From positions 41,065 to 105,064 of the forward strand of contig CABMEU010000029.1 of assembly GCA_902385225.1 (NCBI GenBank): DNA of 64,000 nucleotides. Direction: 5' to 3'. The notes under the pieces are model-generated. The model searched no databases and had not been told where the DNA came from. It was given only the letters and a program-made list of their open reading frames with translations. The position numbers were made by a program, and so were the translations under genes. Of the stretch, positions 109 through 61,461 are shown piece by piece. Every line of letters starts with the position of its first letter. Positions within the stretch are counted from its first letter, which is position 1. Source of the DNA: an uncultured archaeon. Its GTDB lineage: Archaea > Iainarchaeota > Iainarchaeia > Iainarchaeales > JAAZKV01.

Positions 109-1248
109 CTACTTTATACTTTCAAATTTCACTGAGTTAATACAGTTCGGCAAATATTTTGGCTCTTTCAGTCCAGGGAGCTGTTTCACAAGCGGCAAAT
201 CATGCACGGAGTATTTCCCGTAGTAAAGCTCTTTGAGGGCATGAGTTTTCAAAAATTCCTCAACCTTAAGCATCCCGTTGAAATAAAGCGCGTCCTTAAA
301 GAGCGCCCCTCCCTTTGTCTGGTCCTTTATCCCGCGCTTTGCTCGAAGTGTAAGCCTAAACGCCGCTTCCCTATCAAAGTGCTTTGCCATTTCCGTGTAA
401 GTGTCAAAGAAGCTTTTTGTCTGCGCCTCATTAATCGCGATTAATCTCCCCGCATATTCCTTTACCTGTTTCTCAGAACTCACTCCGCTTAGTTTCTCAA
501 TGGTTGCGGCAAGTCCCTCTTCTGTTTCAGTTGTTTCTCTTGAGAATCCGTGCGCGAGTAATTTGTATGGCTGTCTAAAACCATTTTCATATCTGTAAAT
601 GTGCGCCTCAATTTCGTGAGCAATGAATCTTGCAACCATTTCCTTTGTAAAATCCGTATCATTGTTGATTAGTATCTCTCTGCGGGAATTAATTACGGCA
701 AATCTTGAGCCCGCCGGTTCGCGCAGGGTTATCTTGTAATTGAGTTTGCCTTTCTTTAAGCGTGTTTTAATTGTGTTAATTGCAGTGTCAAGGGAGATTC
801 TCTCCTCATATTGCTTCGCATCGGTTTGAAGGGCTTTTTTTGCGGCTGAAACAGATATTCTCTCAATGCTTCCATAGTATGCTTCAGAGTTTCCGCTAAA
901 ATTCTCCGTTCCGATGCTTTTGATGAGCTCAATTTTCTCAATGAGATCAATTATCTCGGATTCAAATACTATCCCAAGTTCGTCTCTTCCAACTTCTTTC
1001 AATAGTTCAGTGAGCTCTGATTTGAATGTATCAAGTTTTGAGCCCGCCTGAAAGTATGAATAATCAGGGTTTCTTTGCATGTATGAGAATACTGGGTTGT
1101 ATTGCTCATTTCTCTCAAGCGCCTCAAAGAATTTCAGTTTTTGCTGATTAAGGTTCTGCGGATTAATAAATTTGAGTAAATTAGTCTCAATTACTCCCGC
1201 GATTTCAAATGTCTTTTGGTCAAGCTTTGTGTAATCAGGGCAGTGCAT
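109..1248 (-). CDS. DUF1704 / QEGLA-motif family protein with an HExxH zinc-metallopeptidase-like motif
   Basis: 379-aa ORF. It contains AHEIEAH (HExxH) and TETEEGLAAT, a near-QEGLA motif. Length and motif layout match the flavohemoglobin-expression-modulating QEGLA (DUF1704) family that co-occurs with RimK-like ATP-grasp ligases. Its stop lies 75 nt from the start of the next RimK gene on the same strand. Confidence 0.6.
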   Translation of the reverse strand: MHCPDYTKLDQKTFEIAGVIETNLLKFINPQNLNQQKLKFFEALERNEQYNPVFSYMQRNPDYSYFQAGSKLDTFKSELTELLKEVGRDELGIVFESEIIDLIEKIELIKSIGTENFSGNSEAYYGSIERISVSAAKKALQTDAKQYEERISLDTAINTIKTRLKKGKLNYKITLREPAGSRFAVINSRREILINNDTDFTKEMVARFIAHEIEAHIYRYENGFRQPYKLLAHGFSRETTETEEGLAATIEKLSGVSSEKQVKEYAGRLIAINEAQTKSFFDTYTEMAKHFDREAAFRLTLRAKRGIKDQTKGGALFKDALYFNGMLKVEEFLKTHALKELYYGKYSVHDLPLVKQLPGLKEPKYLPNCINSVKFESIK

Positions 1249-1322: not shown

Positions 1323-2222
1323 CTATTCACTTTCTTTTCCTTTCTTCGCATCCGCTTTTTCAGCGAGTAATCGTATCCACTCGTGTATTACTGTTGTTCC
1401 GAGGTATTTTTTGAATGGTCCGGGCATGAAATTTACCTCAATTACCACCCATTTGTTTTTGTATTCCATGAGGTCAACCGCGCACATGTCCATTCCGAGT
1501 GTTTTCGCTGCGCCCTTTGCAATAGAAAGCATTTCGGGGGTTGGGTTTATGAGGTGCGCGCTTCCCCCGCGGGAAATGTTTGCTCTCCAATCTCCTTTTT
1601 TGCATTTTCTTTTTACCGCAACAACATAATCACCGATTACATAGCACCGAACATCAGAATCCTTTCCTTTGATAAATTTTTGGGTGGAGATAAATTCCTC
1701 AAATAGGTGCACTGCGTCAAGTATGCTCTCCATTTGCTCTTTTGAGTTAATTAGAACAACTCCTTTTCCGGCGAACCCAGAGATTAATTTCATTACAAAT
1801 GGGTATCCTGTCTCATCAATCGCATAATCAGCGTACCTTGGCGAGATAAAGAGCGTGCTCGTTACCCCAGGGATTGATTTTGTGGAGAGTTTTTGCGAAG
1901 TAAAGAATTTGTGGTTAGTTACTTGGTATGATTCAAGAGTCACAGGGCAGTAGGCGTTTGTGCTTTGTATTGCTTTCATTACCGCTTCTCCCAGCAAAAA
2001 ATCACGTGAAGAAATTCTTGGGTAAATTGCGTCATATTCAAGCAAATTTTTCCCCTTATAAAATAATCCCGCTCTCCCCTGCGAGGTTTGAATTTGTATC
2101 TTATCAATTGTGACAAAAAGCACTTTGCCAAACTTCTGCTTTGCTTCTTCAAGCATGGAATTAATTGTGGATTCTTTGTAAGTTTTTGAGCCAATTATTA
2201 GGAGGCTTTTTTGCGAGGTCAT
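1323..2222 (-). CDS. RimK-family ATP-grasp ligase (alpha-L-glutamate ligase-like)
   Basis: Contains WRANISRGGSAHLINP ... MCAVDLMEYKNKWVVIEVNFMPG, which is the typical RimK/LysX C-terminal ATP-grasp signature. Its start overlaps the upstream ligase's stop by 4 nt. Confidence 0.8.
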   Translation of the reverse strand: MTSQKSLLIIGSKTYKESTINSMLEEAKQKFGKVLFVTIDKIQIQTSQGRAGLFYKGKNLLEYDAIYPRISSRDFLLGEAVMKAIQSTNAYCPVTLESYQVTNHKFFTSQKLSTKSIPGVTSTLFISPRYADYAIDETGYPFVMKLISGFAGKGVVLINSKEQMESILDAVHLFEEFISTQKFIKGKDSDVRCYVIGDYVVAVKRKCKKGDWRANISRGGSAHLINPTPEMLSIAKGAAKTLGMDMCAVDLMEYKNKWVVIEVNFMPGPFKKYLGTTVIHEWIRLLAEKADAKKGKESE

Positions 2223-3136
2223 TTTAACCGCCCTCCAAGCGCTGTTTTCTCAATTAGTTTTTCGAGTCCAAAGAAACTAAATTTCGGTTTATTCTTGTGC
2301 CTGTTCGTTTTCGCTTTTTCAATTAAGAAACTCGCAGCCGTTTCCTCAAGGCTCTCTGAGCTAATCCTGTCAAACTCAGCCCAGGGAATCATCGGCTCGA
2401 TTTTCACTACTCTTCCTTTCGCAAGATCCACTCTCGCAATATCAAATCCGCATGCGTGCGCGGCGCTTATTGCGGTTTTGTGGTCCTCTTCGCTTAGTTT
2501 GTATGTCTCTCCCGCGGAGAGTTCAGGAACTATTTCATCCTTTTGCTTTCTCTTAACCGCGAAAACCTTTTTTCCAATTACCGCGCATGAAATCGCATCC
2601 CCTGGAATATATTCCCTTAGCATAAATCCGTCAGTTTCAGTTCTAATGCTTTTAATAAAGTGATTTAGTTCAGTGCTTGTTTCTACAACAATTTCCTGCT
2701 GGGCTTTTCTCCCGACAAAATACTTTGCGATTAAAGGATAAGAGATTCTTGTTGAAACTTTCTCAATGTTCTTAGCGGAGCCCGAGGTTAGTGTCTTTGG
2801 GGTGGGAATATCCTCGAGTGCTAAAGTAACAAATTGATACGGCTCGTTCATTGCATTATAATATGCCCCTTTTTTCGCGCTCACATAGCATTCCTGGTCA
2901 TGTAATTCCTCAAGTAATGGTTCAATAAATGGGGCGAGAGTTGCTCGTACTTGGATTATTACCGCATCATAGTAAGGGATTTTTTCCCCAAGTGATTTGA
3001 TTAGGGTTTCCTTTTGTTTGCTCACAAGGGTAATTTTTGATACTCGCAGGTACTGCGCATGCGCGCCCTTTTCCTTAAGCGCCGCAACAATAGGGTTAGC
3101 GACCCCTTTTTTCTCAGCAATAACAAGTATATCCAT
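2219..3136 (-). CDS. RimK-family ATP-grasp ligase, second paralog
   Basis: Pre-ATP-grasp plus ATP-grasp architecture. FDIARVDLAKGRVVKIEPMIPW resembles the RimK D..G..V.EVN core. The probable start is MDILVI (3136); the track ORF extends to 3154. It is translationally coupled to 1323-2222. Confidence 0.75.
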   Translation of the reverse strand: MDILVIAEKKGVANPIVAALKEKGAHAQYLRVSKITLVSKQKETLIKSLGEKIPYYDAVIIQVRATLAPFIEPLLEELHDQECYVSAKKGAYYNAMNEPYQFVTLALEDIPTPKTLTSGSAKNIEKVSTRISYPLIAKYFVGRKAQQEIVVETSTELNHFIKSIRTETDGFMLREYIPGDAISCAVIGKKVFAVKRKQKDEIVPELSAGETYKLSEEDHKTAISAAHACGFDIARVDLAKGRVVKIEPMIPWAEFDRISSESLEETAASFLIEKAKTNRHKNKPKFSFFGLEKLIEKTALGGRLK

Positions 3137-3255
3137 GTCCCCACTAAAGCGCATAACACATGCAAGAGCATAAAAGAGTTTCTTTTTTGAGGTTTGCCTG
3201 CTTTTTTAGTTCCAACAATTAACCTTAATAATGCGGATTTCCTTATCATGGCGCT

Positions 3256-3699
3256 GTGGTCTTCTTGGGTAAATCAAAGAAAGTAATTGGTCTTGTTGAG
3301 ATTGTGCATATTAGGGGCAAAAAAGGAATTGTAAAAAAGAGAGCTCTTTTTGATACGGGTGCGACAAGAACGAGTATTGATGTTAAGACCGCCGCAAAAG
3401 CCGGTATTGGTCCGATTGTTTCTAGTGTTAGGGTAAAGAGCGCTTCTTCTTCAAGAGGATATTTGCGCAGAGCGATTGCTGAAGCCGTGATTGTTGTTAA
3501 AGGGAAAAAGTTCAAGAAGGGAGTGAATATTGAGGACCGTGAAGGAATGCCTTATTCTGTATTAATTGGAAGAGATATTATTCACAACAACTTTTTGATT
3601 GATGTTTCAAGGACCCACACAAGCAACAAGGTGCGGGATTCAAAGGACAAGAGCGAGAGAAAGAGAATTACAGAAATGTGGGATAAGCATCAGCAGTAA
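3256..3699 (+). CDS. RimK-associated retropepsin-like aspartyl protease (COG4067/PF05618-like, the family often annotated as putative ATP-dependent zinc protease)
   Basis: ALFDTGATRTSIDV contains the DTGA aspartyl-protease motif. The C-terminal LIGRDIIHNNFLIDVS matches the LLGRnfL..f.VD ending of that family. It is divergently transcribed from the RimK pair. Confidence 0.7.
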   Translation: MVFLGKSKKVIGLVEIVHIRGKKGIVKKRALFDTGATRTSIDVKTAAKAGIGPIVSSVRVKSASSSRGYLRRAIAEAVIVVKGKKFKKGVNIEDREGMPYSVLIGRDIIHNNFLIDVSRTHTSNKVRDSKDKSERKRITEMWDKHQQ

Positions 3700-3749: not shown

Positions 3750-4211
3750 GTGGAAGGAATTGAGTTTAAAGAGCTTAGTAATACAAACCTCAGCACTATT
3801 GAGGAATTGCACGCGCTTTTTCCCCACTGGAAGAAATCCTCTGTTCAGAAAAAGATTAAGCTCACTAACAAGCGCAGAGACAAAAGATTTGTTGCACTAA
3901 GAAACGGAAAAATTATTGCTCATGTGAAATTGGTTTTCGGCAAGGGGCTTCATAATCACAGAGTGGAAGTCACTTCGCTTATTGTTGAGCCGAAAGAAAG
4001 GCGCCAAAAAATTGGAACTGAGCTGATGAAGTATGTTCTAAAACAGCTTCCAGGCGACCGCTCGCTTGTCCTCCTTGCGGTTGACACAAAGAACAAACCC
4101 GCGATTGATTTATACAAAAAGTTGGGCTTTGAGGAATACGGTTCGCTAAAGAAAGCCTCGAGGTTGAACGGAAAGTATGTTGATAATTACTTTATGAAGA
4201 AAGAACTCTAA
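3750..4211 (+). CDS. GNAT family N-acetyltransferase
   Basis: GNAT motif A, RRQKIGTELMKYVLKQL, and a C-terminal KLGFEEYG. GTG start, 50 nt after the retropepsin gene. Confidence 0.8.
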   Translation: MEGIEFKELSNTNLSTIEELHALFPHWKKSSVQKKIKLTNKRRDKRFVALRNGKIIAHVKLVFGKGLHNHRVEVTSLIVEPKERRQKIGTELMKYVLKQLPGDRSLVLLAVDTKNKPAIDLYKKLGFEEYGSLKKASRLNGKYVDNYFMKKEL

Positions 4212-4292: not shown

Positions 4293-4853
4293 GTGGTTTT
4301 GAGTGTTCTATTCCATCCTACTGAGGTCTTCAAGAAGGTTGATTCCTCCCCCGTTCTTTATTCCCCCTGGCTTGTTGTAATTATTGCGGGTATTTTCCTT
4401 GCGATTGTTGGTTATTATGCCTCGGCAAGTTGGCTTACCGGGGTATATATGTTCATTGCGAATATTGTGCAGTGGTTCATTTTGACTTTATTTGTTTGGT
4501 TCTTTGGCTTTATACATTTGAGAAAGAAAAGAGGGATTGCGGAGGAAAGATTTGCGGAATGCGCCGCGGCTACTGGAAAACTTTGGACTATTACTCTTGC
4601 AACTAACTTGATAATGGCGATTCTCTCAGTCTTCTACGGGTTTGTGACAATTTTCCCTTTCAATATTTTGGCTATGATTGGTGTTATTCTTGCAATTATC
4701 CTTACTATTGGCTGGATTGTGGCGTCTTATAAGATGCTAAAAGTTGTATTAGGCATTAATGGCGGGAAATTATTTGTTAATTGGATACTTTTGCTCATTT
4801 TAAATGTGGTTACAAGCGCGTTTATTGTTGGGTTAATAGCAAAAATCTTCTAA
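4293..4853 (+). CDS. Polytopic membrane protein, possibly Yip1-domain-like
   Basis: About five hydrophobic helices with a GTG start. There is no catalytic motif and the assignment is weak. Confidence 0.35.
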   Translation: MVLSVLFHPTEVFKKVDSSPVLYSPWLVVIIAGIFLAIVGYYASASWLTGVYMFIANIVQWFILTLFVWFFGFIHLRKKRGIAEERFAECAAATGKLWTITLATNLIMAILSVFYGFVTIFPFNILAMIGVILAIILTIGWIVASYKMLKVVLGINGGKLFVNWILLLILNVVTSAFIVGLIAKIF

Positions 4854-4996
4854 TTTTAACAGCTCTCTTTAGTTTTCTGCCTTATTTATTTCCTGATTGT
4901 TAAGGCAATTGCCCAAAAACCCCCTGATACTACATAATTTGGCTGGTTTTCCCAAACATTTATAAAGGAAAATGAGAGGAAATTTATCGTGGTATA

Positions 4997-5221
4997 ATGA
5001 AGAAGCTCTGCTCTGAATGCAAGGCCCGTTTCGAGGTTCCAATTGATGATATGGAAGAAGGAGATGCTATTCCCTGCCCTGAATGCAATTTAGAGTACAC
5101 AATTATAGCTGACAAGAAAGGTGTTTTGAAACTAATTGAAAGCAAGACGTTTGAGATGGAGGAAGAGGAAGAAGACTCCGAGGAAGATTCAGACGCTGAA
5201 GAAGATTACGATTCTGATTAA
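4997..5221 (+). CDS. LysW-like zinc-ribbon amino-group-carrier-type protein with an extended poly-acidic C-terminal tail
   Basis: CSECKARFEV...(13 residues)...IPCPECNLEYTII followed by GVLKL. This matches the LysW layout: CPECGAELRL, a 13-residue spacer, CEDCGAELEVV, then GLDPL. The C-terminal 25 residues are E/D-rich and end EEDYDSD, compare LysW's EDWGE. A TATA-like box (tttataaagg) ends about 29 nt upstream of the ATG. Confidence 0.5.
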   Translation: MKKLCSECKARFEVPIDDMEEGDAIPCPECNLEYTIIADKKGVLKLIESKTFEMEEEEEDSEEDSDAEEDYDSD

Positions 5222-5320
5222 GCAAAATCATCTCATTCTAATTGACTTAGTTCCCTCACTCCCATATTCAAATCAAATTCTCAGTGCCCCAAAAACCCTT
5301 AAATACTTCGCCAACTACGA

Positions 5321-6739
5321 TTGTTTATCATGGTGCTAAAACTTTTCAATTCATTTGGCTGCAAGCTTGAGGAATTTAAGCCGATAAAAAAAGATTTTGT
5401 CGGGCTCTACACTTGCGGACCAACTGTCAATAATTACATTCACATAGGAAACCTCAAGTGCTATTCTTGGGAGGATTTGCTTAAGCGTTACCTTCTCTTC
5501 AAGGGCTACAAAGTAAAACAAATAATGAATTTTACTGACGTTGATGACAAGACAATTAAAGGATCAATAGCAAATAATGTTCCTCTCTCAGAATACACTG
5601 AGAAATTCAAGAAAGCGTTTTTAGAAGACATTAAGACAATGAATATTCTTCCCGCGGAAATTTATACTCCCGCAACTGAATATATTCCTGAAATGGTAAA
5701 GCTTGTGGAAAAACTTCTCGATAAAGGTTTTGCTTACAAGGGCGAGGATGGAAGTATTTATTTCTCAATAAAGAAATTCAAGAATTACGGGAAACTCGCG
5801 GGGATTGACACAAAAAAGTTAAAGGATGGGGCGAGAGTAAAACAGGATGAGTATGAAAAAGAGGGTGTAGGGGATTTTGCTTTATGGAAAGCTTGGGATG
5901 AGAATGATGGTCCTGTTTATTGGGAAACTTCTTTAGGGAAAGGAAGACCCGGGTGGCATATTGAGTGCAGCGCGATGAGCATGAAGTACTTGGGAGAAAC
6001 ATTTGATATTCACTGCGGGGGAGTTGATAATAAATTCCCTCACCACGAGAACGAGATTGCGCAAAGCGAGGCCGCTACAGGAAAAAAGTTTGTTAATTAT
6101 TGGCTACACACAGAGCACCTGCTCGTTGATGGGAAGAAAATGTCAAAGTCCCTGGGGAACTTTTACACTCTCCGCGAATTGACCTCAAAAGGTTATAGCC
6201 CAATGGCAATTAGATATGTTTTCCTAAATACTGATTACCGCCAGCAGTTAAATTTCTCCTTTAATGCGGTGAAGGATGCGGAGAAAACTCTTTTGGGATT
6301 GCAGAATTTTATCTCAAGATTGCGGGAAATAAAAAACAAAAAAGATGCTGATTCAATTGCCCCGCTGGTAAGCGCGGCTCTTGAGGGCTTCACCGCCGGA
6401 ATGGATAATGATTTGAATGTGCCTGAAGCGATGAAACATATTTTTGATTTTGTAAAGAAAATAAATAAATTAATTGATGAGGGGGAGATTGGAGTTAGCG
6501 CGGCGAACGAAGCCCTTGAATTCCTCAAAAAAATTAATTCAGTTATTGGAGTGCTTAATTTCACAGAGAAGTATTTTGAACTCACGGAAGAACAGCAGGC
6601 ATTAATCCTTGAGCGTAACCTCGCAAGAAAGCACAAGGACTGGAAGAAGAGCGATGAACTCCGCGATAAACTCAAGGCGATGGGGATTGAGGTTGTGGAT
6701 AATAAGGACGGGACGACTCTCGCAAAGCCCCTGAAGTAG
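5321..6739 (+). CDS. cysS: Cysteinyl-tRNA synthetase
   Basis: Class-I HIGH-type motif NYIHIGNL, KMSKSLGN, and the CGPTV zinc-site region near the N-terminus. Confidence 0.9.
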   Translation: MFIMVLKLFNSFGCKLEEFKPIKKDFVGLYTCGPTVNNYIHIGNLKCYSWEDLLKRYLLFKGYKVKQIMNFTDVDDKTIKGSIANNVPLSEYTEKFKKAFLEDIKTMNILPAEIYTPATEYIPEMVKLVEKLLDKGFAYKGEDGSIYFSIKKFKNYGKLAGIDTKKLKDGARVKQDEYEKEGVGDFALWKAWDENDGPVYWETSLGKGRPGWHIECSAMSMKYLGETFDIHCGGVDNKFPHHENEIAQSEAATGKKFVNYWLHTEHLLVDGKKMSKSLGNFYTLRELTSKGYSPMAIRYVFLNTDYRQQLNFSFNAVKDAEKTLLGLQNFISRLREIKNKKDADSIAPLVSAALEGFTAGMDNDLNVPEAMKHIFDFVKKINKLIDEGEIGVSAANEALEFLKKINSVIGVLNFTEKYFELTEEQQALILERNLARKHKDWKKSDELRDKLKAMGIEVVDNKDGTTLAKPLK

Positions 6740-6810: not shown

Positions 6811-8613
6811 TTGGATGCTTTATTGCTCTTTGTTCATATCGCGGAGATTATTATTGTCGCGGCGGTTGTGAGCGCGTTATTAAGAAAATTAAAGCAGCCC
6901 ACGCTCCTTGCGTATATTATTGCGGGTGTTCTGATTGGTCCGCTTGTGATTGGGGGCGTTGATTGGACCGCTTTTGGAATTCCTTTTCCCATTGGAATTA
7001 GCTCAATTACTCCTGAAGTGACAACTTTATCTGAGATTGGAATGGCACTTTTAATGTTTTCCATAGGAATAGAAACTTCTATCCACCGTCTCCTCAAAAT
7101 GGGGCGTTCGGTTATTCTTGCAACTCTTTTGCAGATAGGTCTTGTAATTTTTTTCACTTTTCTCTTAACAATTCCAACAGGGCTTCTTACAACCGAGCAA
7201 GCGCTCTTTGTAGGGGCAATTCTTGCATTCTCCTCCACAATGATCGTGGTAAAACTACTCTCAGATTCAAATGAGCTTAATTCACTTAACAGCAGACTAA
7301 TGATTTCCATTTTGCTTCTGCAGGATTTTTTGATGATTTTTTTTGTTCCAATGCTCTCAAATGTTTCAAATATTCTTGATGTATCCATTTTGTTTAAAGT
7401 GGTCTCAAATAGTTTGCTCTTGTTCATAATTGCTTTTGTAATGAGTCGTTTTGTTCTGCCGCGTTTCTTCAGAGTGGCTGTTGAGGAGCAGGAGCTTTTT
7501 GTTCTTACAAGCGTTGCAACAGCATTCATCTTTATTGGTTTAAGTGTGCTTCTTGATATTCCAAGTTCAATTGGTGCTTTCATCGGCGGTCTTGCCTTAA
7601 GCACCCTTCCGTACAATTTGGAAATATTCTCAAAAATTCGCGCCTTGCGTGACTTTTTCCTCACAATCTTCTTTGTTACTCTTGGAGCGCAGTTAAGTTT
7701 TGGTTTTTCCGTTTTAAATCCGTGGTTAATGGCTGTTATCATCTTACTCGTTTTTGTAATAAAGCCAATTGTTTTCTTTGTGCTCTCTCTATTCATAGGC
7801 TATGGAAGCAAAACCGTAGTAAAAATGGGGTTGAGTTTGTTTCAGGTTTCAGAATTTGGCTTTGTACTTGTAGGGATTGCTACAGCCACATTTATTTCAG
7901 GAGTTCCCATATTTTCCGCTGATTTGGCTTCCTTTATTATAACAGTAATTGCGATTTCAATGATTGTTTCCCCTTACTTAATGGGTTCCTCAAGCAAGGT
8001 TGGGCAATTCTTTTATAATAAAGCAAAGCATCTTCAAAGGCACCTCCGCACTGGTTTCTTTAGGAGAAAACTTGATGAGCTTGAAGTTATGCCTTCAAAG
8101 AAAGAGCTTGAGAATCACATAATCATTGTGGGAGGGGGAACTGTTGGGCGAGGGCTTGCTAAGGAATTAAGAAAAAATAATCAGGTGCTTGTGATTGACC
8201 ATGACCCTGATGTTGTTGAGCAGGGGCAAAGAGAAGGATTGCCGTTTGTTTATGGGACTTCAGAGAATGAAACGCTTTTTGATAAGCTTGACCTCCCCGA
8301 CGCTAAATTATTTATAATCTCAATTCTCAATCACTCAGAATCAATTAATATGATTAAGCAAGTGAGAAAGTTTAACCGCAAATTACCCATATTTACTATC
8401 GCCCACTATTTTTCTGATGCGCTTGACTTCTACAAACAAGGCGCGGAATACGTGTGCATGCCTTCAGTTATTGGCGCTAACTCTTTTATGCAGAAAATCT
8501 CGGAGTTCATTGACACTGGGAAGAACGCGAAAGTAAATAAGTTCAAAACCGAGTTCATGGATTATTTGGAAGAAAAAGTTAAAGAAGAGAAGAAGTATAG
8601 GCAAAGGGGATAG
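6811..8613 (+). CDS. CPA2-type cation/proton antiporter with a C-terminal RCK/TrkA-N domain
   Basis: About 12 transmembrane helices, then IIVGGGTVGRGLAKEL, a Rossmann GxGxxG motif of the TrkA-N type. Confidence 0.8.
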   Translation: MDALLLFVHIAEIIIVAAVVSALLRKLKQPTLLAYIIAGVLIGPLVIGGVDWTAFGIPFPIGISSITPEVTTLSEIGMALLMFSIGIETSIHRLLKMGRSVILATLLQIGLVIFFTFLLTIPTGLLTTEQALFVGAILAFSSTMIVVKLLSDSNELNSLNSRLMISILLLQDFLMIFFVPMLSNVSNILDVSILFKVVSNSLLLFIIAFVMSRFVLPRFFRVAVEEQELFVLTSVATAFIFIGLSVLLDIPSSIGAFIGGLALSTLPYNLEIFSKIRALRDFFLTIFFVTLGAQLSFGFSVLNPWLMAVIILLVFVIKPIVFFVLSLFIGYGSKTVVKMGLSLFQVSEFGFVLVGIATATFISGVPIFSADLASFIITVIAISMIVSPYLMGSSSKVGQFFYNKAKHLQRHLRTGFFRRKLDELEVMPSKKELENHIIIVGGGTVGRGLAKELRKNNQVLVIDHDPDVVEQGQREGLPFVYGTSENETLFDKLDLPDAKLFIISILNHSESINMIKQVRKFNRKLPIFTIAHYFSDALDFYKQGAEYVCMPSVIGANSFMQKISEFIDTGKNAKVNKFKTEFMDYLEEKVKEEKKYRQRG

Positions 8614-11020: not shown

Positions 11021-11788
11021 TTAATGTAACTTTTCAAGCGCTTCCTTTTCTTTCTCATTAGTTTTTCCCAAAACAATTAAACTTTGCGGGAAAATATAAT
11101 GAATTTCCTTAAACTCGCGGATATTTTTCTCTCCATTAAGGATTTTTTGTTTTTCAGAGCCCATTCCCATTAGCGCAACATATTCAAATCCTTTCTTCTT
11201 CACGGTTTTCTTTTTCTCTTTTCCAGCAATCTTTTCAAGAACCTCAATCGCTTCAATTGCGTTCATCATTCTTTGTGGTGTTTCATCCTTCTTAATATCA
11301 AGTAAGCATAATGTGTGTAACCCTATTTTCTGGTTCGCAAGAATTTGTTTGTAAAAAGTATCAGGCTCATAATTTGGCGCGTGGTAGCAAATTGTTACGG
11401 TTCTCCCGAACTTGTACTCATCCAAACCCGATTCAGCAACAAAATTGGTAATTGAAATTCCAGGTATTACTTTTGTTTTTATTCCCTTTTCCTTCGCATC
11501 AAGGAGTAATTGTATGTGTGTTGTTGCGGTGAGTGGGTTACCAAACACAAGGAGCGCAATATTATTTGAACTCGCAGAAAGCAGCGCGCTTTCAAAATTC
11601 TCTTCAACACCCTTTCTACCAAGTTCCAAAAAATCTCTTCCGATTAATTCCTTTAAATCCTTAGTGAACCCTTGCGCGTATTGTGAGGTATAAGTTTCAA
11701 GGAATACCGAATCACACTTCTTTATCGCCTCAAGTGCCTCAATCGTCAAGTGTGAGGGTTTTAGCCCGAGTCCAATCAAATATAACAT
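11021..11788 (-). CDS. dph5: Diphthine synthase (EF-2 diphthamide biosynthesis methyltransferase)
   Basis: Starts MLYLIGLGL, a tetrapyrrole-methylase-fold signature typical of Dph5. Contains GNPLTATTH. Confidence 0.85.
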   Translation of the reverse strand: MLYLIGLGLKPSHLTIEALEAIKKCDSVFLETYTSQYAQGFTKDLKELIGRDFLELGRKGVEENFESALLSASSNNIALLVFGNPLTATTHIQLLLDAKEKGIKTKVIPGISITNFVAESGLDEYKFGRTVTICYHAPNYEPDTFYKQILANQKIGLHTLCLLDIKKDETPQRMMNAIEAIEVLEKIAGKEKKKTVKKKGFEYVALMGMGSEKQKILNGEKNIREFKEIHYIFPQSLIVLGKTNEKEKEALEKLH

Positions 11789-11846
11789 ATAAATCAAGTA
11801 ATTTATCTCCAGAAAAGTTTTAATACTGCCGAGCGGTGATTTAATC

Positions 11847-12305
11847 ATGATTAAAAGAAGAGTATCAGTGCGTGCTTTGGTAAGAAGAGGCGCTTTAGGG
11901 GGCGCGGTTAGTTTGGGAGAGGCGCGGGGCGGGGCTAATGGCGGGATGCGAAGCGAGTTAAGAGTTCACAATAAAAGCAGTTCTGATAATAAGGGTAGGA
12001 TTCCTTACAAAAGAGCTGTTATCAAATCCAAGCTGAATAGGGTTAGGAGAATAAGGAGTCCTGCGGAGCAGAGAATGGCACTTAGAATTGTTGAGTTAAT
12101 TAATTCCGGGAAGTATCCTCAAAGGGATGAAATTCTGAGACGCGCTGTGAGCACTTACAGAGCCCAATTTGTTTTTATTGAGGGGAATAAGAAAATCAGG
12201 TGGGACCCGCACCTCGCTTTTAAGGTTTATAAGAATCTAATCTCCTGGGGAGTAGTTACCGAGAAACCTTCCTCTCAAAAGTATGCTACTGTGACTAAGC
12301 GCTGA
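11847..12305 (+). CDS. Basic hypothetical protein
   Basis: R/K-rich 152-aa ORF and the only long ORF in this interval. No motif. Confidence 0.25.
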   Translation: MIKRRVSVRALVRRGALGGAVSLGEARGGANGGMRSELRVHNKSSSDNKGRIPYKRAVIKSKLNRVRRIRSPAEQRMALRIVELINSGKYPQRDEILRRAVSTYRAQFVFIEGNKKIRWDPHLAFKVYKNLISWGVVTEKPSSQKYATVTKR

Positions 12306-41979: not shown

Positions 41980-43332
41980 TTGATGAGCGAGAAGGGAAGG
42001 GTAAAGGAATACGAGGGTTATTTGGATTCTAATTACAAGCCGAACAGGGATGATTTGGTTTGCGAGTATTTTTTGGAACCCGCAAAAGGAATTACGCTTG
42101 AGAGTGCCGCGCAGAGAATCGCCTCAGAGTCAAGCATCGGAACTTGGACTGATATTGGAACTCTTCCTAAGAGAATGTTTGATGAACTCTCGCCAAGAGT
42201 TTTCTTCGTTGATAAAAAGAATAGTATTGTTCGAATCGCTTATTCAAAAAAACTCTTTGAGCCGAATAATATTTCACAGATCTTAAGCTCCGTTGCGGGA
42301 AATATTTTCGGAATGAGTGATGTGAAGAATCTAAAATTATTAGATATTGATTTCCCCGAGTCTTTTGTTGACAAGTATATGGGTCCGCATTATGGAATCG
42401 ACGGGGTAAGAAAGCTAATGAAAGTAAAATACAGGCCATTCGTTGGAACAATTGTAAAACCAAAACTTGGTCTTGATGAGAAGAAGCACGCGCAGGTGGC
42501 GTATGAGGCGTGGAAGGGCGGGTGCGATTATGTTAAGGATGATGAGAATCTCACCTCAATGAGCTTCAATAACTTTTACAAAAGAATTAATGTGACTCTT
42601 AGGGCGAGAGAAAAAGCGGAGCGGGAAACCGGCGAGCGAAAAGCGTATTTGCCAAATGTAACCGCGCCTTATGATGAAATGTTAAGAAGAGCAAGGCATG
42701 TTGTCCGCATGGGCGGAGAATTTGTGATGGTTGATGTGCTCACGGTTGGATTCTCCGGTATACAGGCGCTTCGTGACCACGATTTGAATGTGGTCTACCA
42801 TGGTCACCGCGCAATGCACGGCGCGTTTACCCGAAATCCTCATCATGGAATCTCAATGCTCGTGATAGCAAAACTCTGTCGTTTAATTGGAATTGACCAA
42901 TTGCATGTCGGCGGAGTTGTTGGGAAAATGTATGAAGGAAAAGAAGAGGTTACGGCTGTTGGGGAGGAAATTGAACAGCAAGTGGTAAGCAAAGATATTT
43001 TTAGGCACAGGCTTCAGCAGGACTGGTGTGACTTAAAGCCAATCCTTGCGGTTTGCTCTGGGGGGCTTCATCCTGGAAAAGTTCAGCCATTAATTCACGC
43101 AATGGGGAGAGATATAATTATCCAAGCCGGCGGAGGAATCCACGGCCACCCAAGAGGAACACTCGCGGGCGCAATGGCGATGAGGCAGGCGGTTGATGCG
43201 GAGATGGAAGCAAAGAGTCCTATTGAGTACGCAAAAACCCACTCGGAGCTTCGAGAAGCCTTGCAAAAATGGCACGGAATGAATTTTTACGAAAGGCATC
43301 ATGAGAGTTTGAGAAAAGGCGGGAAGAGATAG
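41980..43332 (+). CDS. rbcL: RuBisCO large subunit, form III (archaeal type)
   Basis: GGCDYVKDDENLTS, the carbamylated-Lys/KDDE active-site region. GLHPG and the GGGIHGHP C-terminal motif. 450 aa. No small-subunit gene nearby. Confidence 0.9.
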   Translation: MMSEKGRVKEYEGYLDSNYKPNRDDLVCEYFLEPAKGITLESAAQRIASESSIGTWTDIGTLPKRMFDELSPRVFFVDKKNSIVRIAYSKKLFEPNNISQILSSVAGNIFGMSDVKNLKLLDIDFPESFVDKYMGPHYGIDGVRKLMKVKYRPFVGTIVKPKLGLDEKKHAQVAYEAWKGGCDYVKDDENLTSMSFNNFYKRINVTLRAREKAERETGERKAYLPNVTAPYDEMLRRARHVVRMGGEFVMVDVLTVGFSGIQALRDHDLNVVYHGHRAMHGAFTRNPHHGISMLVIAKLCRLIGIDQLHVGGVVGKMYEGKEEVTAVGEEIEQQVVSKDIFRHRLQQDWCDLKPILAVCSGGLHPGKVQPLIHAMGRDIIIQAGGGIHGHPRGTLAGAMAMRQAVDAEMEAKSPIEYAKTHSELREALQKWHGMNFYERHHESLRKGGKR

Positions 43333-44071: not shown

Positions 44072-44654
44072 TTAATTGTTTTTAGTGGCATCACCACTCA
44101 TTAGGCATTAACACCCACTTCTTATTTGAAATCACTATAAGTTGGGCGATATCGATCACTAGTTTGTTATGTTAGTTGTTGTTTTGAAATATTTGGTGCG
44201 CAAACTTTCTCCAAAACCCTCAAAACCGCTGCTTTTCTTAATGTATAATTAGGCTTATTTTGTGTTTAATTTGGGATTTAAACCATTTCGCCCTTTTTGC
44301 ATATATTTAAACAATTCGTTCTTCGACATAACAAAAATATGCCTTCTAAGGGGGGTGGAGGCAAAGTCGTCAAAACAAGGCTGATAAAAGCTCAGAACTA
44401 TCAAAATAAGCTATTTTAACACTTTTCACTAGTAAAATTCCTGTTTTTTTACGTCATGTTGGTTATATTTGGGTTTAAAGCGTGTTTAACGTACTTTGCA
44501 TAGTTCCACAATCAACGAAGTGAGTGAAATAAGCCTTATTTGGGCTTCTTTTTGTGTTTAAGGCGTTATAATCCTATACATAAAAGCAAAGGTTTATAAG
44601 TAAGGTGTGAGGCAATATAAGCAATTAAATTTTAGCCTTTTAAGGCAGGGTGAT

Positions 44655-45749
44655 ATGATGAAGTCATTAATTGAAGCTTCCGTTCATAAGAGCGGAACTA
44701 CTGTAGCAGACGATAAATTGGAGGAATTCGGCACACCAAAAATCATGGTTATTGGTGCAGGCGGAGCTGGATGTAACGCGGTAAACAGACTTGCGGCTAT
44801 GGGAATAGCAGGCGCACAGTTAGTTGCTGTTAACACAGATAAGCAACACCTCGCAATTGTTAACGATGAGATAACAAAAGTTCTTATCGGTAAAAGCGTA
44901 ACAAGAGGACTAGGAGCAGGCGGTTACCCAGAAGTTGGTGCTAAGGCTGCTGAAGTATCAAGAAACGCTCTTGAAGAAGTAATGGCTGGAGTAGATATGT
45001 TATTCTTATCATCCGGAATGGGTGGAGGAACAGGAACAGGCTCAGCTCCAATAATTGCAGGAATTGCAAAAGAACAGGGGGCAATTGTAATCGCAATGGT
45101 TACTTACCCGTTCGCTCTAGAAAAAGCTAGATTAATTAAAGCTGAAGAAGGTATTGACGCTTTGCAGAAAGTCTGCGACACAGTTGTTGTTATTGATAAC
45201 AACCGATTGGTTGAATTAGTACCTAACTTGCCAATACAGGACGCATTCAAAGTTGCTGATGAAGTAATTGCAAGAACTGTAAGAGGAATTACAGAGACAA
45301 TCACACAGCCTTCATTAATCAACTTGGATTATGCTGATGTTCGCTCAATAATGAGTAACAAAGGACTATCAGTTATCGCTGTTGGTGAATCAAAATCTGT
45401 TGACAAAGTTAACGAAGTTGTTGAAGACACTTTGAAGAACGCTTTGTTAGATATTGATATCGCTGGAGCTACTGGATGCTTAATCCACATCACAGGCGGG
45501 CCAGACCTAACTCTAGGTGAAGCTAACGCTGTTGGTGAAATGCTAACAGAAAGAATTGATCCTAAAGCTGTTGTAATATGGGGAGCAAGAGTAGACCCAA
45601 CTTTTGAGAACAAACTCGAAGTTATCTGCATCTTCACTGGAGTTCACAGCCCATACATCAAGTCTTCTCCAAGCAAATTCAGCGGAAAAGGCGAGAAAGG
45701 AAGCCACTCATACAGAAACAGTGACTTAGACCTTGACTTCATTAGGTAA
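44655..45749 (+). CDS. ftsZ: Cell division GTPase FtsZ
   Basis: GAGGAGCNAVNR and the tubulin signature SGMGGGTGTGSAP. The start is trimmed to MMKSL. Confidence 0.9.
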   Translation: MMKSLIEASVHKSGTTVADDKLEEFGTPKIMVIGAGGAGCNAVNRLAAMGIAGAQLVAVNTDKQHLAIVNDEITKVLIGKSVTRGLGAGGYPEVGAKAAEVSRNALEEVMAGVDMLFLSSGMGGGTGTGSAPIIAGIAKEQGAIVIAMVTYPFALEKARLIKAEEGIDALQKVCDTVVVIDNNRLVELVPNLPIQDAFKVADEVIARTVRGITETITQPSLINLDYADVRSIMSNKGLSVIAVGESKSVDKVNEVVEDTLKNALLDIDIAGATGCLIHITGGPDLTLGEANAVGEMLTERIDPKAVVIWGARVDPTFENKLEVICIFTGVHSPYIKSSPSKFSGKGEKGSHSYRNSDLDLDFIR

Positions 45750-52917: not shown

Positions 52918-52990
52918 TTCAAAAACTGCCCCGATAGTGCAGTGGTCAAGCACATGAGCCTTTCAAGCTTGTAACCCGGGTTCGAATCCC
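52918..52990 (+). tRNA. tRNA-Glu (anticodon UUC)
   Basis: Manual fold: acceptor gccccga/tcggggt with a G1-U72 wobble. D-stem gtgc/gcac. Anticodon stem tgagc/gcttg with loop cTTTCaa, anticodon TTC. Variable loop taac. T-arm ccggg-ttcgaat-cccgg. Discriminator a. CCA is not encoded. Confidence 0.7.
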
Positions 52991-53014
52991 GGTCGGGGTA
53001 TTAAACGAATCCGT

Positions 53015-61332: not shown

Positions 61333-61461
61333 ACGCGCCGTCCAAGAAGTGCCGGTGGTTAATGCAAGTTCTCCTAAGAATAAGTCCTGTTCTTGGCGTG
61401 ATAAACTCTCAAAATAGTTTTGCGGGTAGATATTTATACTGCTTTTTTCATACTAAACTGC

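What the first reader, a model, noticed from the sequence alone, without database searches (positions are those of the whole stretch)
4904..5221. Orphan LysW-like gene with its own promoter architecture (10-bp palindrome plus TATA) and an unusually long acidic tail
Upstream of the ATG at 4997 there is a TATA-like box, tttataaagg (4959-4968), and about 45 bp further upstream a perfect 10-bp palindrome GGCAATTGCC (4904-4913), a plausible transcription-factor operator.

The encoded protein keeps the LysW zinc-ribbon layout, but its tail is 25 acidic residues ending ...EEDYDSD rather than LysW's short ...EDWGE. A long Glu/Asp tail is the kind of substrate RimK elongates on protein S6. It is also the kind of tail that ends up on LysW-type carriers.
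Basis: partly seen in the sequence, partly recalled or inferred. Interest (0 to 1): 0.7.

Follow-up and report, generated by a model that had tools for sequence, protein, structure and literature searches.

The report
LysW-like zinc ribbon with acidic tail
A real, conserved 74-residue archaeal protein (DPANN, Iainarchaeota) joins the zinc-ribbon head of the lysine-pathway carrier LysW to a long acidic tail; it is not a true LysW, and it may be the protein that neighbouring RimK-type enzymes modify, although that link is unproven.

Summary
The ORF at 4997-5221 is real. It matches about 80 protein clusters, all from Iainarchaeota/Diapherotrites MAGs. The window copy is VVB75682.1, annotated 'Uncharacterised protein'.

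It is not a LysW family member. It lacks EDWGE, its last residue varies between species, it fails the curated score cut-offs, and no lysine-pathway genes were found in the window.

The tail is 22 residues with 16 acidic ones, not 25. An acidic tail with an aromatic residue near the C-terminus is conserved.

The TATA box is conserved at the same distance from the ATG in nearly all close relatives. The 10-bp palindrome is at chance level and is absent from the closest orthologue.

The gene is not really orphan. Close relatives share a block of MATCAP-like peptidase, RimK, a degenerate RimK paralogue, RimB-like retropepsin, GNAT, Yip1-like membrane protein, this gene and CysRS. That clade is shallow. 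Deeper relatives keep only membrane protein, zinc ribbon and CysRS.

My best guess, at about 0.38, is a LysW-style tail acceptor for the RimK-type ligases.

The parts
4997..5221 (+). ORF for the 74-aa zinc-ribbon/acidic-tail protein (VVB75682.1), stop codon included
   Evidence: It has 47 homologous clusters plus 34 in a deeper group.
4997..5152 (+). Residues 1-52: 4-Cys zinc ribbon homologous to the LysW globular domain, ending in the short conserved helix (L)IESKxxEM
5153..5218 (+). Residues 53-74: disordered acidic tail EMEEEEEDSEEDSDAEEDYDSD (16 of 22 acidic) with the near-C-terminal motif E-D-Y-D-S-D
   Evidence: pLDDT is below 50 for residues 57-68. The motif is conserved in alignment A1. 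The last residue varies, but an aromatic residue 2-6 positions from the end is kept.
4959..4966 (+). TATA box TTTATAAA of the gene's own archaeal promoter
   Evidence: It is conserved 31-40 bp upstream of the ATG in nearly all group A loci. The octamer occurs only 5 times in 64 kb. The transcription start has not been mapped.
4904..4913 (.). 10-bp palindrome GGCAATTGCC; not supported as a functional element
   Evidence: It is at chance level and is not conserved. Its left half overlaps a semi-conserved T-rich TTTTG(G)CCATT stretch downstream of the upstream gene.
4293..4853 (+). Yip1-like multi-pass membrane protein, the most deeply conserved upstream neighbour
   Evidence: Pfam Yip1 scores 27.6 bits against a cut-off of 28.6. 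A homologous membrane protein precedes the zinc-ribbon gene in both groups: hhalign probability 84%, E 7e-6 over 163 columns.
5330..6739 (+). Cysteinyl-tRNA synthetase, the conserved downstream neighbour
   Evidence: The ATG is at 5330.
3750..4211 (+). GNAT acetyltransferase of the group A block
3256..3699 (+). Retropepsin-like aspartic peptidase (RimB/RloA-like) with a DTGA motif
   Evidence: Pfam PF05618 scores 31.5 bits. NCBIfam hits to RloA3 and RimB are below their cut-offs. The DTGA motif is visible in the translation.
2219..3154 (-). Divergent RimK paralogue ('RimK2'), probably degenerate
   Evidence: It matches only positions 11-152 of the 188-position RimK profile. The Gly-rich loop is replaced by GRKAQQ and the ExN region does not align. 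The family is confined to the same clade, with 48 clusters. It overlaps RimK1 by 4 nt.
1323..2222 (-). RimK-type alpha-L-glutamate ligase ('RimK1')
   Evidence: TIGR00768 scores 151 bits against a 143.4 cut-off. E. coli RimK scores 120 bits, while LysX/ArgX score 41-54. K141, the Gly loop, D248, E260 and N262 are all kept.
109..1248 (-). MATCAP/DUF1704-type metallo-carboxypeptidase homologue
   Evidence: Pfam MATCAP E 5e-46; TIGR02421 scores 168 bits, below its cut-off.

Best explanation
**What it is.** The gene encodes a lineage-specific derivative of the amino-group carrier protein LysW, found in Iainarchaeota/Diapherotrites (DPANN).
- It has a 4-Cys zinc-ribbon head.
- It has a flexible tail of about 22 residues that is strongly acidic and carries an acidic-aromatic motif close to the free C-terminus.
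- It is transcribed from its own TATA-box promoter with a very short leader.

**How it probably works (inferred).** It works the way LysW does. The head docks on partner enzymes and the tail feeds its C-terminus into their active sites.
- The most likely partners are encoded just upstream: a RimK-type alpha-L-glutamate ligase, probably helped by its degenerate paralogue.
- A MATCAP-like carboxypeptidase and a RimB-like retropepsin in the same block would trim the tail.
- Together these would give a reversible cycle of adding and removing C-terminal amino acids, most likely glutamate.
- This would be the archaeal counterpart of the bacterial S6/RimK/RimB system, in an organism that has no S6.

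**Shown:** homology of the head to LysW, conservation of the tail, the conserved promoter, and the gene neighbourhood.

**Inferred:** any covalent modification, and the identity of the partners.
For: **LysW homology**
- Foldseek's top five PDB hits are all LysW chains (probability 1.0-0.84).
- The family profile finds EDWGE-ending LysW proteins in 1.84 billion representatives (P0059, E 1.4e-5, 41 bits).
- P0059 is followed by a LysX-like ATP-grasp gene and is 49% identical over 45 residues to the window protein.

**The tail looks functional**
- An acidic tail with Y/F 2-6 residues from the end is kept in about 80 clusters of both groups. LysW's EDWGE has the same acidic-acidic-aromatic pattern.

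**Candidate partners**
- RimK1 is a bona fide RimK-type enzyme with all ATP and Mg ligands.
- The only proven protein substrates of this ATP-grasp subfamily are acidic C-terminal tails: bS6 for RimK and LysW for LysX/ArgX (established knowledge). bS6 is specific to bacteria.
- In 64 kb this is the only small ORF with a strongly acidic C-terminus.
- The block MATCAP-RimK1-RimK2 / retropepsin-GNAT-Yip1-zinc ribbon is present in every close relative with enough flank.
- One deep relative (L007) also has a RimK pair 3.5-5 kb upstream.
- RimK2 and the zinc-ribbon protein have equally narrow distributions: 48 and 47 clusters from the same clade.
- RimB-type retropepsins are known to trim Glu tails (PMC11957791).
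Against: - Group A is a shallow clade (CysRS 63-90% identical). Shared gene order there could be simple inheritance. CysRS and a Na+/H+ exchanger are equally conserved neighbours.
- In three deep relatives with 10 kb on each side (L043, L044, L045), no RimK, MATCAP, retropepsin or GNAT gene is present. Only the membrane protein, the zinc ribbon and CysRS persist.
- The C-terminal residue is not conserved: D, S, E, K, N or A. E. coli RimK needs a C-terminal Glu-Glu (established knowledge).
- Runs of Glu long enough for Pseudomonas RimB (at least 5-6) occur in only some orthologues.
- The gene has its own promoter and need not be co-expressed with the cluster.
- No complex prediction could be run.
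- The RimK/GNAT/peptidase cluster could act on small molecules or free peptides instead.
Confidence: 0.38

Rival explanations
1. The protein is an unmodified acidic adaptor unrelated to the RimK cluster. It works with the Yip1-like membrane protein encoded immediately upstream, and perhaps with the CysRS / Na+/H+ exchanger block. The acidic-aromatic tail would act as a non-covalent binding motif.
For: - The pair 'about 200-aa multi-pass membrane protein followed by the zinc ribbon' on one strand is the deepest conserved feature. It is seen in group A and in L007, L037, L040, L041, L043, L044 and L045.
- The membrane proteins of the two groups are homologous: hhalign probability 84%, E 7e-6.
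- CysRS follows directly in L043-L045, with a gap of 25-145 bp.
- No RimK genes lie within 10 kb in those three loci.
Against: - General synteny between the groups also seems high. For example, histone-Hef adjacency is kept in both L005 and L045, so position alone is weak evidence.
- The membrane protein evolves fast (22-40% identity within group A) while the zinc ribbon is well conserved.
- No function is known for prokaryotic Yip1-domain proteins.
- The gene has its own promoter.
Confidence: 0.3
2. It is a canonical LysW/ArgW amino-group carrier used in lysine or arginine biosynthesis.
For: The globular domain is homologous to LysW. ATP-grasp genes of the RimK/LysX subfamily lie nearby.
Against: - There is no EDWGE motif and the last residue is not a conserved Glu.
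- It scores 30.3 bits against the 75-bit cut-off of NF041070, and 19.2 against 27 for PF21344.
- The neighbouring ligase is RimK-type (120 bits) rather than LysX/ArgX-type (41-54 bits).
- No LysZ, LysY, LysJ or LysK was found among the larger ORFs of the 64-kb window.
Confidence: 0.03
3. It is an archaeal relative of the CSL zinc-finger protein Dph3/Kti11, a small metal-binding electron donor for diphthamide or radical-SAM enzymes.
For: - The best hits of the family profile among PDB sequences are Kti11/Dph3: E 4e-4, about 40% identity over 35 residues.
- Pfam CSL is hit weakly by 42 of 48 members.
- A probable diphthine synthase (Dph5, TP_methylase fold; the Dph5 assignment rests on my reading of the N-terminal sequence) lies 6 kb downstream at 11021-11848.
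Against: - The CSL score is 18.3 bits against a 29.2 cut-off.
- The first zinc knuckle is CxxC, not the CxC of CSL.
- In the 1.84-billion-protein search, LysW-like proteins score 35-41 bits. No hit looks like Dph3: none carries its CxC first knuckle or its N-terminal extension.
- The family is confined to one archaeal phylum, whereas diphthamide is universal in archaea.
Confidence: 0.05
4. It is simply one more member of the generic class 'zinc ribbon plus acidic low-complexity region' (the Pfam FYDLN_acid type). Its resemblance to LysW would then say nothing about function.
For: FYDLN_acid is the top Pfam hit at 23.6 bits against a 23.9 cut-off. It matches 39 of 48 members at E < 0.01, and several homologues carry a precomputed PF09538 hit.
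Against: - The defining [KR]FYDLN motif is absent; the window protein has KARFEV.
- The match is driven largely by the CxxC pairs and the acidic composition.
- FYDLN_acid is a bacterial family of unknown function, so membership would explain nothing.
- The specific similarity to EDWGE-type LysW is much stronger.
Confidence: 0.1

Closest known systems
LysW / ArgW amino-group carrier protein (Thermus, Sulfolobus, Thermococcus; PDB 3WWL, 3VPB, 5K2M)
   Same: - Both have a homologous 4-Cys zinc-ribbon head followed by a flexible acidic C-terminal extension with an acidic-acidic-aromatic motif (EDW in LysW, EDY/EDF here).
- Both are small and very acidic.
- Both are encoded near ATP-grasp ligases of the RimK/LysX subfamily.
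   Different: - The tail is about twice as long.
- It ends in ...EDYDSD, or variants ending in S, E, K or N, instead of the invariant EDWGE.
- It fails the curated family thresholds.
- No LysZ, LysY, LysJ or LysK genes were found.
- The neighbouring ligase is RimK-type, not LysX/ArgX-type.
Bacterial ribosomal protein bS6 with RimK and RimB (C-terminal polyglutamylation and trimming)
   Same: - An acidic C-terminal tail (E. coli S6 ends ...GDSEE).
- A RimK-type alpha-L-glutamate ligase with intact catalytic residues.
- A retropepsin-like peptidase in the same gene block.
   Different: - The candidate acceptor is a zinc-ribbon protein, not a ribosomal protein.
- The tail does not end in Glu-Glu.
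- The block has additional parts: a degenerate second ligase, a MATCAP-like carboxypeptidase, a GNAT, and an M29 peptidase or second MATCAP in relatives.
- No modification has been shown.
Alpha-tubulin tail cycle (ATP-grasp ligases TTL/TTLL and the carboxypeptidase MATCAP)
   Same: - An acidic tail with a tyrosine near the C-terminus.
- A MATCAP-family metallopeptidase homologue and ATP-grasp amino-acid ligases encoded together.
   Different: - The ligases belong to the RimK family, not the TTL family.
- The substrate is not a tubulin or FtsZ. The window's FtsZ has a non-acidic tail.
- This is purely an analogy.
Dph3/Kti11 CSL zinc finger and Pfam FYDLN_acid
   Same: - Weak sequence similarity of the zinc-ribbon core to Dph3/Kti11.
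- The same zinc-ribbon-plus-acidic-region architecture as FYDLN_acid.
   Different: - Scores are below both families' thresholds.
- The defining motifs (CxC/CSL and FYDLN) are absent.
- Fold searches do not find Dph3.

Membership tests
LysW/ArgW amino-group carrier protein | Zinc-ribbon globular domain homologous to LysW | tested here: met
LysW/ArgW amino-group carrier protein | Conserved C-terminal EDWGE motif with an invariant terminal Glu as the attachment site | tested here: not met
   The tail ends in EDYDSD. Across species the last residue is D, S, E, K, N or A.
LysW/ArgW amino-group carrier protein | Score above the curated family cut-offs (NF041070 at 75 bits, PF21344 at 27 bits, TIGR01206) | tested here: not met
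   The scores are 30.3 and 19.2 bits. TIGR01206 is not reported at E <= 1.
LysW/ArgW amino-group carrier protein | Genomic association with LysX/ArgX, LysZ, LysY, LysJ and LysK | tested here: not met
   The neighbouring ligase is closer to RimK (120 bits) than to LysX/ArgX (41-54 bits). No kinase, reductase, aminotransferase or M20 gene was found among the scanned ORFs of the window. Only ORFs of roughly 200 aa or more were scanned beyond 12 kb.
RimK substrate of the bS6 type | Acidic C-terminal tail ending in Glu-Glu | tested here: not met
   The tail is acidic (16 of 22 residues) but ends in DSD. Some deep relatives end in EEE or EEEEE.
RimK substrate of the bS6 type | A catalytically competent RimK-type ligase in the same organism | tested here: met
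   RimK1 passes TIGR00768 and keeps K141, the Gly loop, D248, E260 and N262.
RimK substrate of the bS6 type | ATP-dependent addition of Glu to the C-terminus | not testable with these tools
   This needs mass spectrometry or an enzyme assay.
CSL zinc finger (Dph3/Kti11) | CxC...CxxC ligand pattern with the CSL motif, and a score above the Pfam cut-off of 29.2 bits | tested here: not met
   The pattern is CxxC...CPECNL, the score is 18.3 bits, and no Dph3 structure appears in the fold searches.
FYDLN_acid (PF09538 / TIGR02300) | [KR]FYDLN motif between CxxC pairs, a long acidic region, and a score of at least 23.9 bits | tested here: not met
   The window protein scores 23.6 bits and lacks the motif, although it has the acidic region and the CxxC pairs. 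Some orthologues are flagged PF09538, so the family as a whole is borderline.
Archaeal TATA/BRE promoter | A/T-rich octamer at a fixed distance upstream of the gene, conserved among orthologues | tested here: met
   A TTTATAAA-type box lies 31-40 bp before the ATG in nearly all group A loci. The transcription start itself has not been mapped.

The most novel reading that the evidence does not exclude
Iainarchaeota run a dedicated protein-tail code. A LysW-derived acceptor protein would have its acidic, tyrosine-bearing C-terminus extended by RimK-family ligases. A MATCAP-family carboxypeptidase and a retropepsin would trim it back. This would be a prokaryotic system combining the logic of LysW carriers, S6 polyglutamylation and the tubulin tyrosination cycle. 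The modified tail might signal to the conserved Yip1-like membrane partner.
Probability: 0.22. Interest if true: 0.8.

Novelty: new variant of a known kind. Interest (0 to 1): 0.5.

Why it matters
LysW-type carriers are known only from lysine and arginine biosynthesis and from a few secondary-metabolite pathways. RimK-type protein glutamylation is known only for bacterial S6.

A LysW homologue with an S6-like tail, next to RimK, RimB-like and MATCAP-like genes, in an archaeon that has no S6, offers a concrete and cheap experiment: co-express the proteins and weigh the product. That experiment could reveal what RimK-family enzymes do in DPANN archaea. It could also show how carrier-protein chemistry and tail-modification chemistry are related in evolution.

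If the link is false, the protein is still a conserved, unannotated family with a clear fold assignment. It marks a gene pair (Yip1-like membrane protein and zinc ribbon) that is conserved across a phylum.

Tried and rejected
1. **Palindrome as operator.** Rejected. It is at chance frequency and is not conserved.
2. **The CCCAAAAACCC motif.** It is found upstream of both this gene and CysRS. There are 5 matches within one mismatch against 2.4 expected, and 7 of 100 shuffles reach that count. The spacing to the TATA box differs between the two sites. Not pursued.
3. **Fused-chain AlphaFold model** of RimK2-RimK1-zinc ribbon with a paired 14-species alignment.
4. **Metagenome scan for deep relatives.** It returned a single 8-kb locus. 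An earlier attempt failed because no stretch was conserved enough.
5. **The afdb50 fold library** was unavailable.
6. **An error of mine.** In some searches the CysRS query was translated out of frame (5332 instead of 5330). That gave 35-45% identities and suggested deep divergence of group A. The corrected value is 63-90%. The early argument that the zinc ribbon is far more conserved than CysRS is withdrawn.
7. **The Dph3/Kti11 lead**. Examined and ranked low.
8. **FtsZ as an alternative MATCAP/RimK target.** Its tail is not acidic.
9. **Poly-Glu run as a RimB site.** The window tail has five consecutive Glu, but orthologues have 1-6, so it is not a conserved feature.
10. **Tail ending versus extra enzymes.** I looked for co-variation between the tail ending and the presence of a second MATCAP, an M29 peptidase or a third ATP-grasp. 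No clean pattern emerged.
11. **Literature searches** found no description of this family.

Full report
**1. What is at the coordinates**

The + strand carries an ATG at 4997 that opens a 74-codon ORF ending at 5221. The protein is MKKLCSECKARFEVPIDDMEEGDAIPCPECNLEYTIIADKKGVLKLIESKTFEMEEEEEDSEEDSDAEEDYDSD.

- TTTATAAA lies at 4959-4966, 38 bp upstream of the ATG.
- GGCAATTGCC lies at 4904-4913.
- The tail (residues 53-74) is 22 residues long with 16 Asp/Glu, not '25 acidic residues'.
- The exact protein is in public databases as VVB75682.1, 'Uncharacterised protein [uncultured archaeon]', on a 134,907-bp contig.
- The closest named genome is a Candidatus Forterrea MAG at 95% identity. Others are Candidatus Iainarchaeum/Diapherotrites, which belong to DPANN.

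**2. Promoter claims**

The palindrome is not significant.
- The window has 58 perfect 10-bp palindromes, against 83 +/- 8 expected. It has 13 with at least 6 G+C, against 15 +/- 4 expected.
- The dyad is lost in the orthologous loci, including L009, whose protein is 95% identical.
- Only a T-rich TTTTG(G)CCATT stretch that overlaps its left half recurs. It is probably the 3' end of the upstream gene.

The TATA box is well supported.
- TTTATAAA(G/C), or a close variant, sits 31-40 bp upstream of the start codon in nearly all close orthologous loci.
- The octamer occurs only five times in the 64-kb window.
- An independent archaeal promoter with a leader of about 10 nt is therefore likely. The transcription start has not been mapped.

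**3. The protein family**

A word-index search found 47 clusters, nearly all 72-77 aa long. I call these group A.
- In the alignment, C5, C8, C27 and C30, the EEGD turn, CPECNLEYT and LIESKxxEM are invariant or nearly so.
- Most tails end in E-D-(Y/F)-D-S-D.

A profile search of 1.84 billion representatives returned only 38 hits at E < 1e-3.
- Among them is a second, deeper set that I call group B. It comprises 34 clusters, also from Diapherotrites MAGs.
- Group B has the same head and a shorter acidic tail, again with Y/F a few residues from an acidic C-terminus. Examples are ...EFYGEEEEE...ELFEEED and ...QYYEDDA.
- Across species the very last residue is D, S, E, K, N or A.

So the acidic tail and a near-terminal aromatic residue are conserved. 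The terminal residue is not.

**4. Is it LysW-like?**

Curated models do not accept it.
- NF041070 scores 30.3 bits against a cut-off of 75.
- PF21344 scores 19.2 against 27.
- FYDLN_acid scores 23.6 against 23.9.
- CSL scores 18.3 against 29.2.
- Members hit many zinc-ribbon models weakly.

Homology of the head to LysW is nevertheless well supported.
- The AlphaFold model has pLDDT of about 82 for residues 1-48 and a disordered tail.
- All top five Foldseek PDB hits are LysW chains, with probability 1.0-0.84 and target-normalised TM-scores of 0.48-0.65.
- The family profile recovers genuine LysW proteins ending in EDWGE, P0059 and P0083.
- P0059 carries the Pfam LysW domain and is followed by a LysX-like ATP-grasp gene. 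It is 49% identical to the window protein over 45 residues, with a pairwise E of 5e-12.

A competing lead came from the profile search of PDB sequences. Its best hit is Kti11/Dph3 at E 4e-4.
- That is only 24 bits, against 35-41 bits for LysW-like proteins in the large search.
- No Dph3 structure appears in either fold search.
- The first zinc knuckle is CxxC rather than CxC.

Verdict: the head is a LysW homologue, but the protein is not a LysW family member. It has no EDWGE motif and no conserved terminal Glu, it scores below threshold, and it has no lysine-pathway neighbours.

**5. Neighbourhood**

The gene is not isolated. Reading upstream to downstream, the window holds:

| Coordinates | Strand | Gene |
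|---|---|---|
| 109-1248 | - | MATCAP/DUF1704 metallopeptidase homologue |
| 1323-2222 | - | RimK-type ligase (RimK1) |
| 2219-3154 | - | divergent RimK paralogue (RimK2), overlapping RimK1 by 4 nt |
| 3256-3699 | + | retropepsin-like peptidase with DTGA |
| 3750-4211 | + | GNAT |
| 4293-4853 | + | Yip1-like membrane protein |
| 4997-5221 | + | the zinc-ribbon gene |
| 5330-6739 | + | CysRS |
| 6811-8613 | + | Na+/H+ exchanger |

- RimK1 is much closer to E. coli and Pseudomonas RimK (120 and 110 bits) than to LysX/ArgX (41-54 bits). It keeps K141, the Gly-rich loop, D248, E260 and N262.
- RimK2 has lost the Gly-rich loop and has no alignable ExN motif. It may be non-catalytic.
- The same block is present in every group A locus with enough flank. 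Beyond MATCAP lies either an M29 peptidase or a second MATCAP paralogue, and sometimes a third ATP-grasp gene.
- The RimK2 family is as narrowly distributed as the zinc-ribbon family, with 48 clusters from the same clade.
- No other small ORF in the 64 kb has a strongly acidic C-terminus.
- The larger ORFs elsewhere in the window are housekeeping genes. No LysZ, LysY, LysJ or LysK was found.

**6. How much the neighbourhood means**

Here I must correct myself. In some searches my CysRS query was out of frame, which gave 35-45% identities. I briefly concluded that group A is deeply diverged.

In the correct frame, CysRS is 63-90% identical across group A. That is similar to RimK1 (median 72%), the retropepsin (78%) and the zinc-ribbon head. 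Group A is therefore a shallow clade, and its shared gene order may be inherited rather than selected.

The deeper group B has CysRS at 40-47% identity.
- Three loci with 10 kb on each side keep only the order membrane protein, zinc ribbon, CysRS, with the Na+/H+ exchanger further downstream in two of the three (not in L044). They have no RimK, MATCAP, retropepsin or GNAT gene.
- One group B locus, L007, does have a RimK2-like and a RimK1-like gene 3.5-5 kb upstream, together with M20 and C39-like peptidases.
- The membrane proteins upstream of the gene in groups A and B are homologous: hhalign probability 84%, E 7e-6 over 163 columns.

The most deeply conserved partner by position is therefore the Yip1-like membrane protein, followed by CysRS. 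General synteny between the groups also seems appreciable; histone-Hef adjacency, for example, is kept in both. Position alone is weak evidence for any partner.

**7. Most likely mechanism**

All known LysW-type proteins work by presenting a flexible acidic C-terminal tail to enzymes that dock on the zinc-ribbon head. The first of these enzymes is always an ATP-grasp ligase of the RimK/LysX subfamily (established knowledge; the PDB entries show LysW bound to ArgX, LysX, LysZ and LysY).

The only other proven protein substrate of this subfamily is the acidic tail of bacterial S6, which archaea lack. RimB-type retropepsins trim such Glu tails (PMC11957791).

A LysW homologue with a long S6-like tail and an acidic-aromatic end reminiscent of EDW sits in group A beside several relevant genes:
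- an intact RimK;
- a degenerate RimK paralogue;
- a RimB-like retropepsin;
- a homologue of the tubulin-tail carboxypeptidase MATCAP.

This makes it the obvious candidate acceptor. I therefore favour a reversible cycle of C-terminal ligation and trimming on this protein, with confidence about 0.38. Every step beyond homology and neighbourhood is inference.

The main rival, at about 0.3, is an unmodified acidic adaptor tied to the Yip1-like membrane protein. Canonical LysW, Dph3-like and generic FYDLN_acid readings rank low.

**8. Novelty and verdict**

No paper in the searchable library describes this family, and databases call it hypothetical.

- It is a new variant of a known kind: a LysW-type carrier fold with a different tail and context.
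- The operator palindrome does not stand, 'orphan' is only half true, and the RimK idea remains plausible but untested.
- Interest is moderate. A simple co-expression and mass-spectrometry experiment would decide whether this is a new archaeal protein-tail modification system.

Noticed in passing
window 2219-3154 (-): The second RimK paralogue looks catalytically degenerate. The Gly-rich ATP loop GxQGxG is replaced by GRKAQQ, the ExN Mg site cannot be aligned, and only positions 11-152 of the 188-position Pfam RimK profile match. It overlaps RimK1 by 4 nt, which suggests translational coupling. It may be a non-catalytic partner or adaptor subunit.
   Followed up: partly
window 109-1248 (-); L011, L012, L015, L017, L019, L022, L023; L001, L005, L013, L026-L035: A MATCAP/DUF1704 carboxypeptidase homologue sits next to the RimK pair. 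Directly beyond it, relatives carry either a second MATCAP paralogue (about 33-35% identical to the window protein) or an M29 aminopeptidase, seemingly never both. L005/L033 and L035 add a third ATP-grasp gene.
   Followed up: partly
window 4293-6739; L007, L037, L040, L041, L043, L044, L045: The order Yip1-like membrane protein, zinc-ribbon protein, CysRS is kept across Diapherotrites lineages whose CysRS is only 40-47% identical to the window's. A TrkA-N Na+/H+ exchanger often follows. The membrane proteins of the two groups are homologous (hhalign probability 84%).
   Followed up: yes
window 4912-4922 and 5288-5298: An exact 11-mer, CCCAAAAACCC, occurs upstream of both the zinc-ribbon gene and CysRS. 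Its distance to the TATA-like box differs between the two sites. It is marginally enriched: 5 matches within one mismatch against 2.4 expected.
   Followed up: partly
window 11021-11848 (-): A TP_methylase-fold protein that looks like diphthine synthase (Dph5) lies 6 kb downstream. I noted it because the zinc-ribbon profile's best hit among PDB sequences is Dph3/Kti11. The proximity is probably coincidental.
   Followed up: partly
P0164, P0165, P0073, P0071 (no window coordinates): Other LysW-like zinc ribbons, from unidentified lineages, carry even longer poly-acidic tails (up to about 40 residues) without EDWGE. JGI labels one of them LysW. Long-tailed LysW derivatives may be a wider phenomenon.
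   Followed up: no
window 61420-62802 (+): A 460-aa protein has a C-terminal match to the eukaryotic F-box-associated (FBA, PF04300) sugar-binding domain (66 bits). That is unusual for an archaeon.
   Followed up: no
window 41980-43332 (+), 44607-45749 (+), 52927-53001 (+): The window also carries a RuBisCO large subunit, an FtsZ whose C-terminal tail is not acidic, and the only RNA gene found, tRNA-Glu(UUC). A TTTATAAA box lies 65 bp upstream of the tRNA.
   Followed up: partly
L007 1-4499: In one deep relative, the RimK2-like/RimK1-like pair sits with a third RimK-like gene, a C39-like peptidase and an M20 peptidase (the family that contains LysK). MATCAP and the retropepsin are absent. This is a different peptidase set around the same ligase pair.
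   Followed up: no
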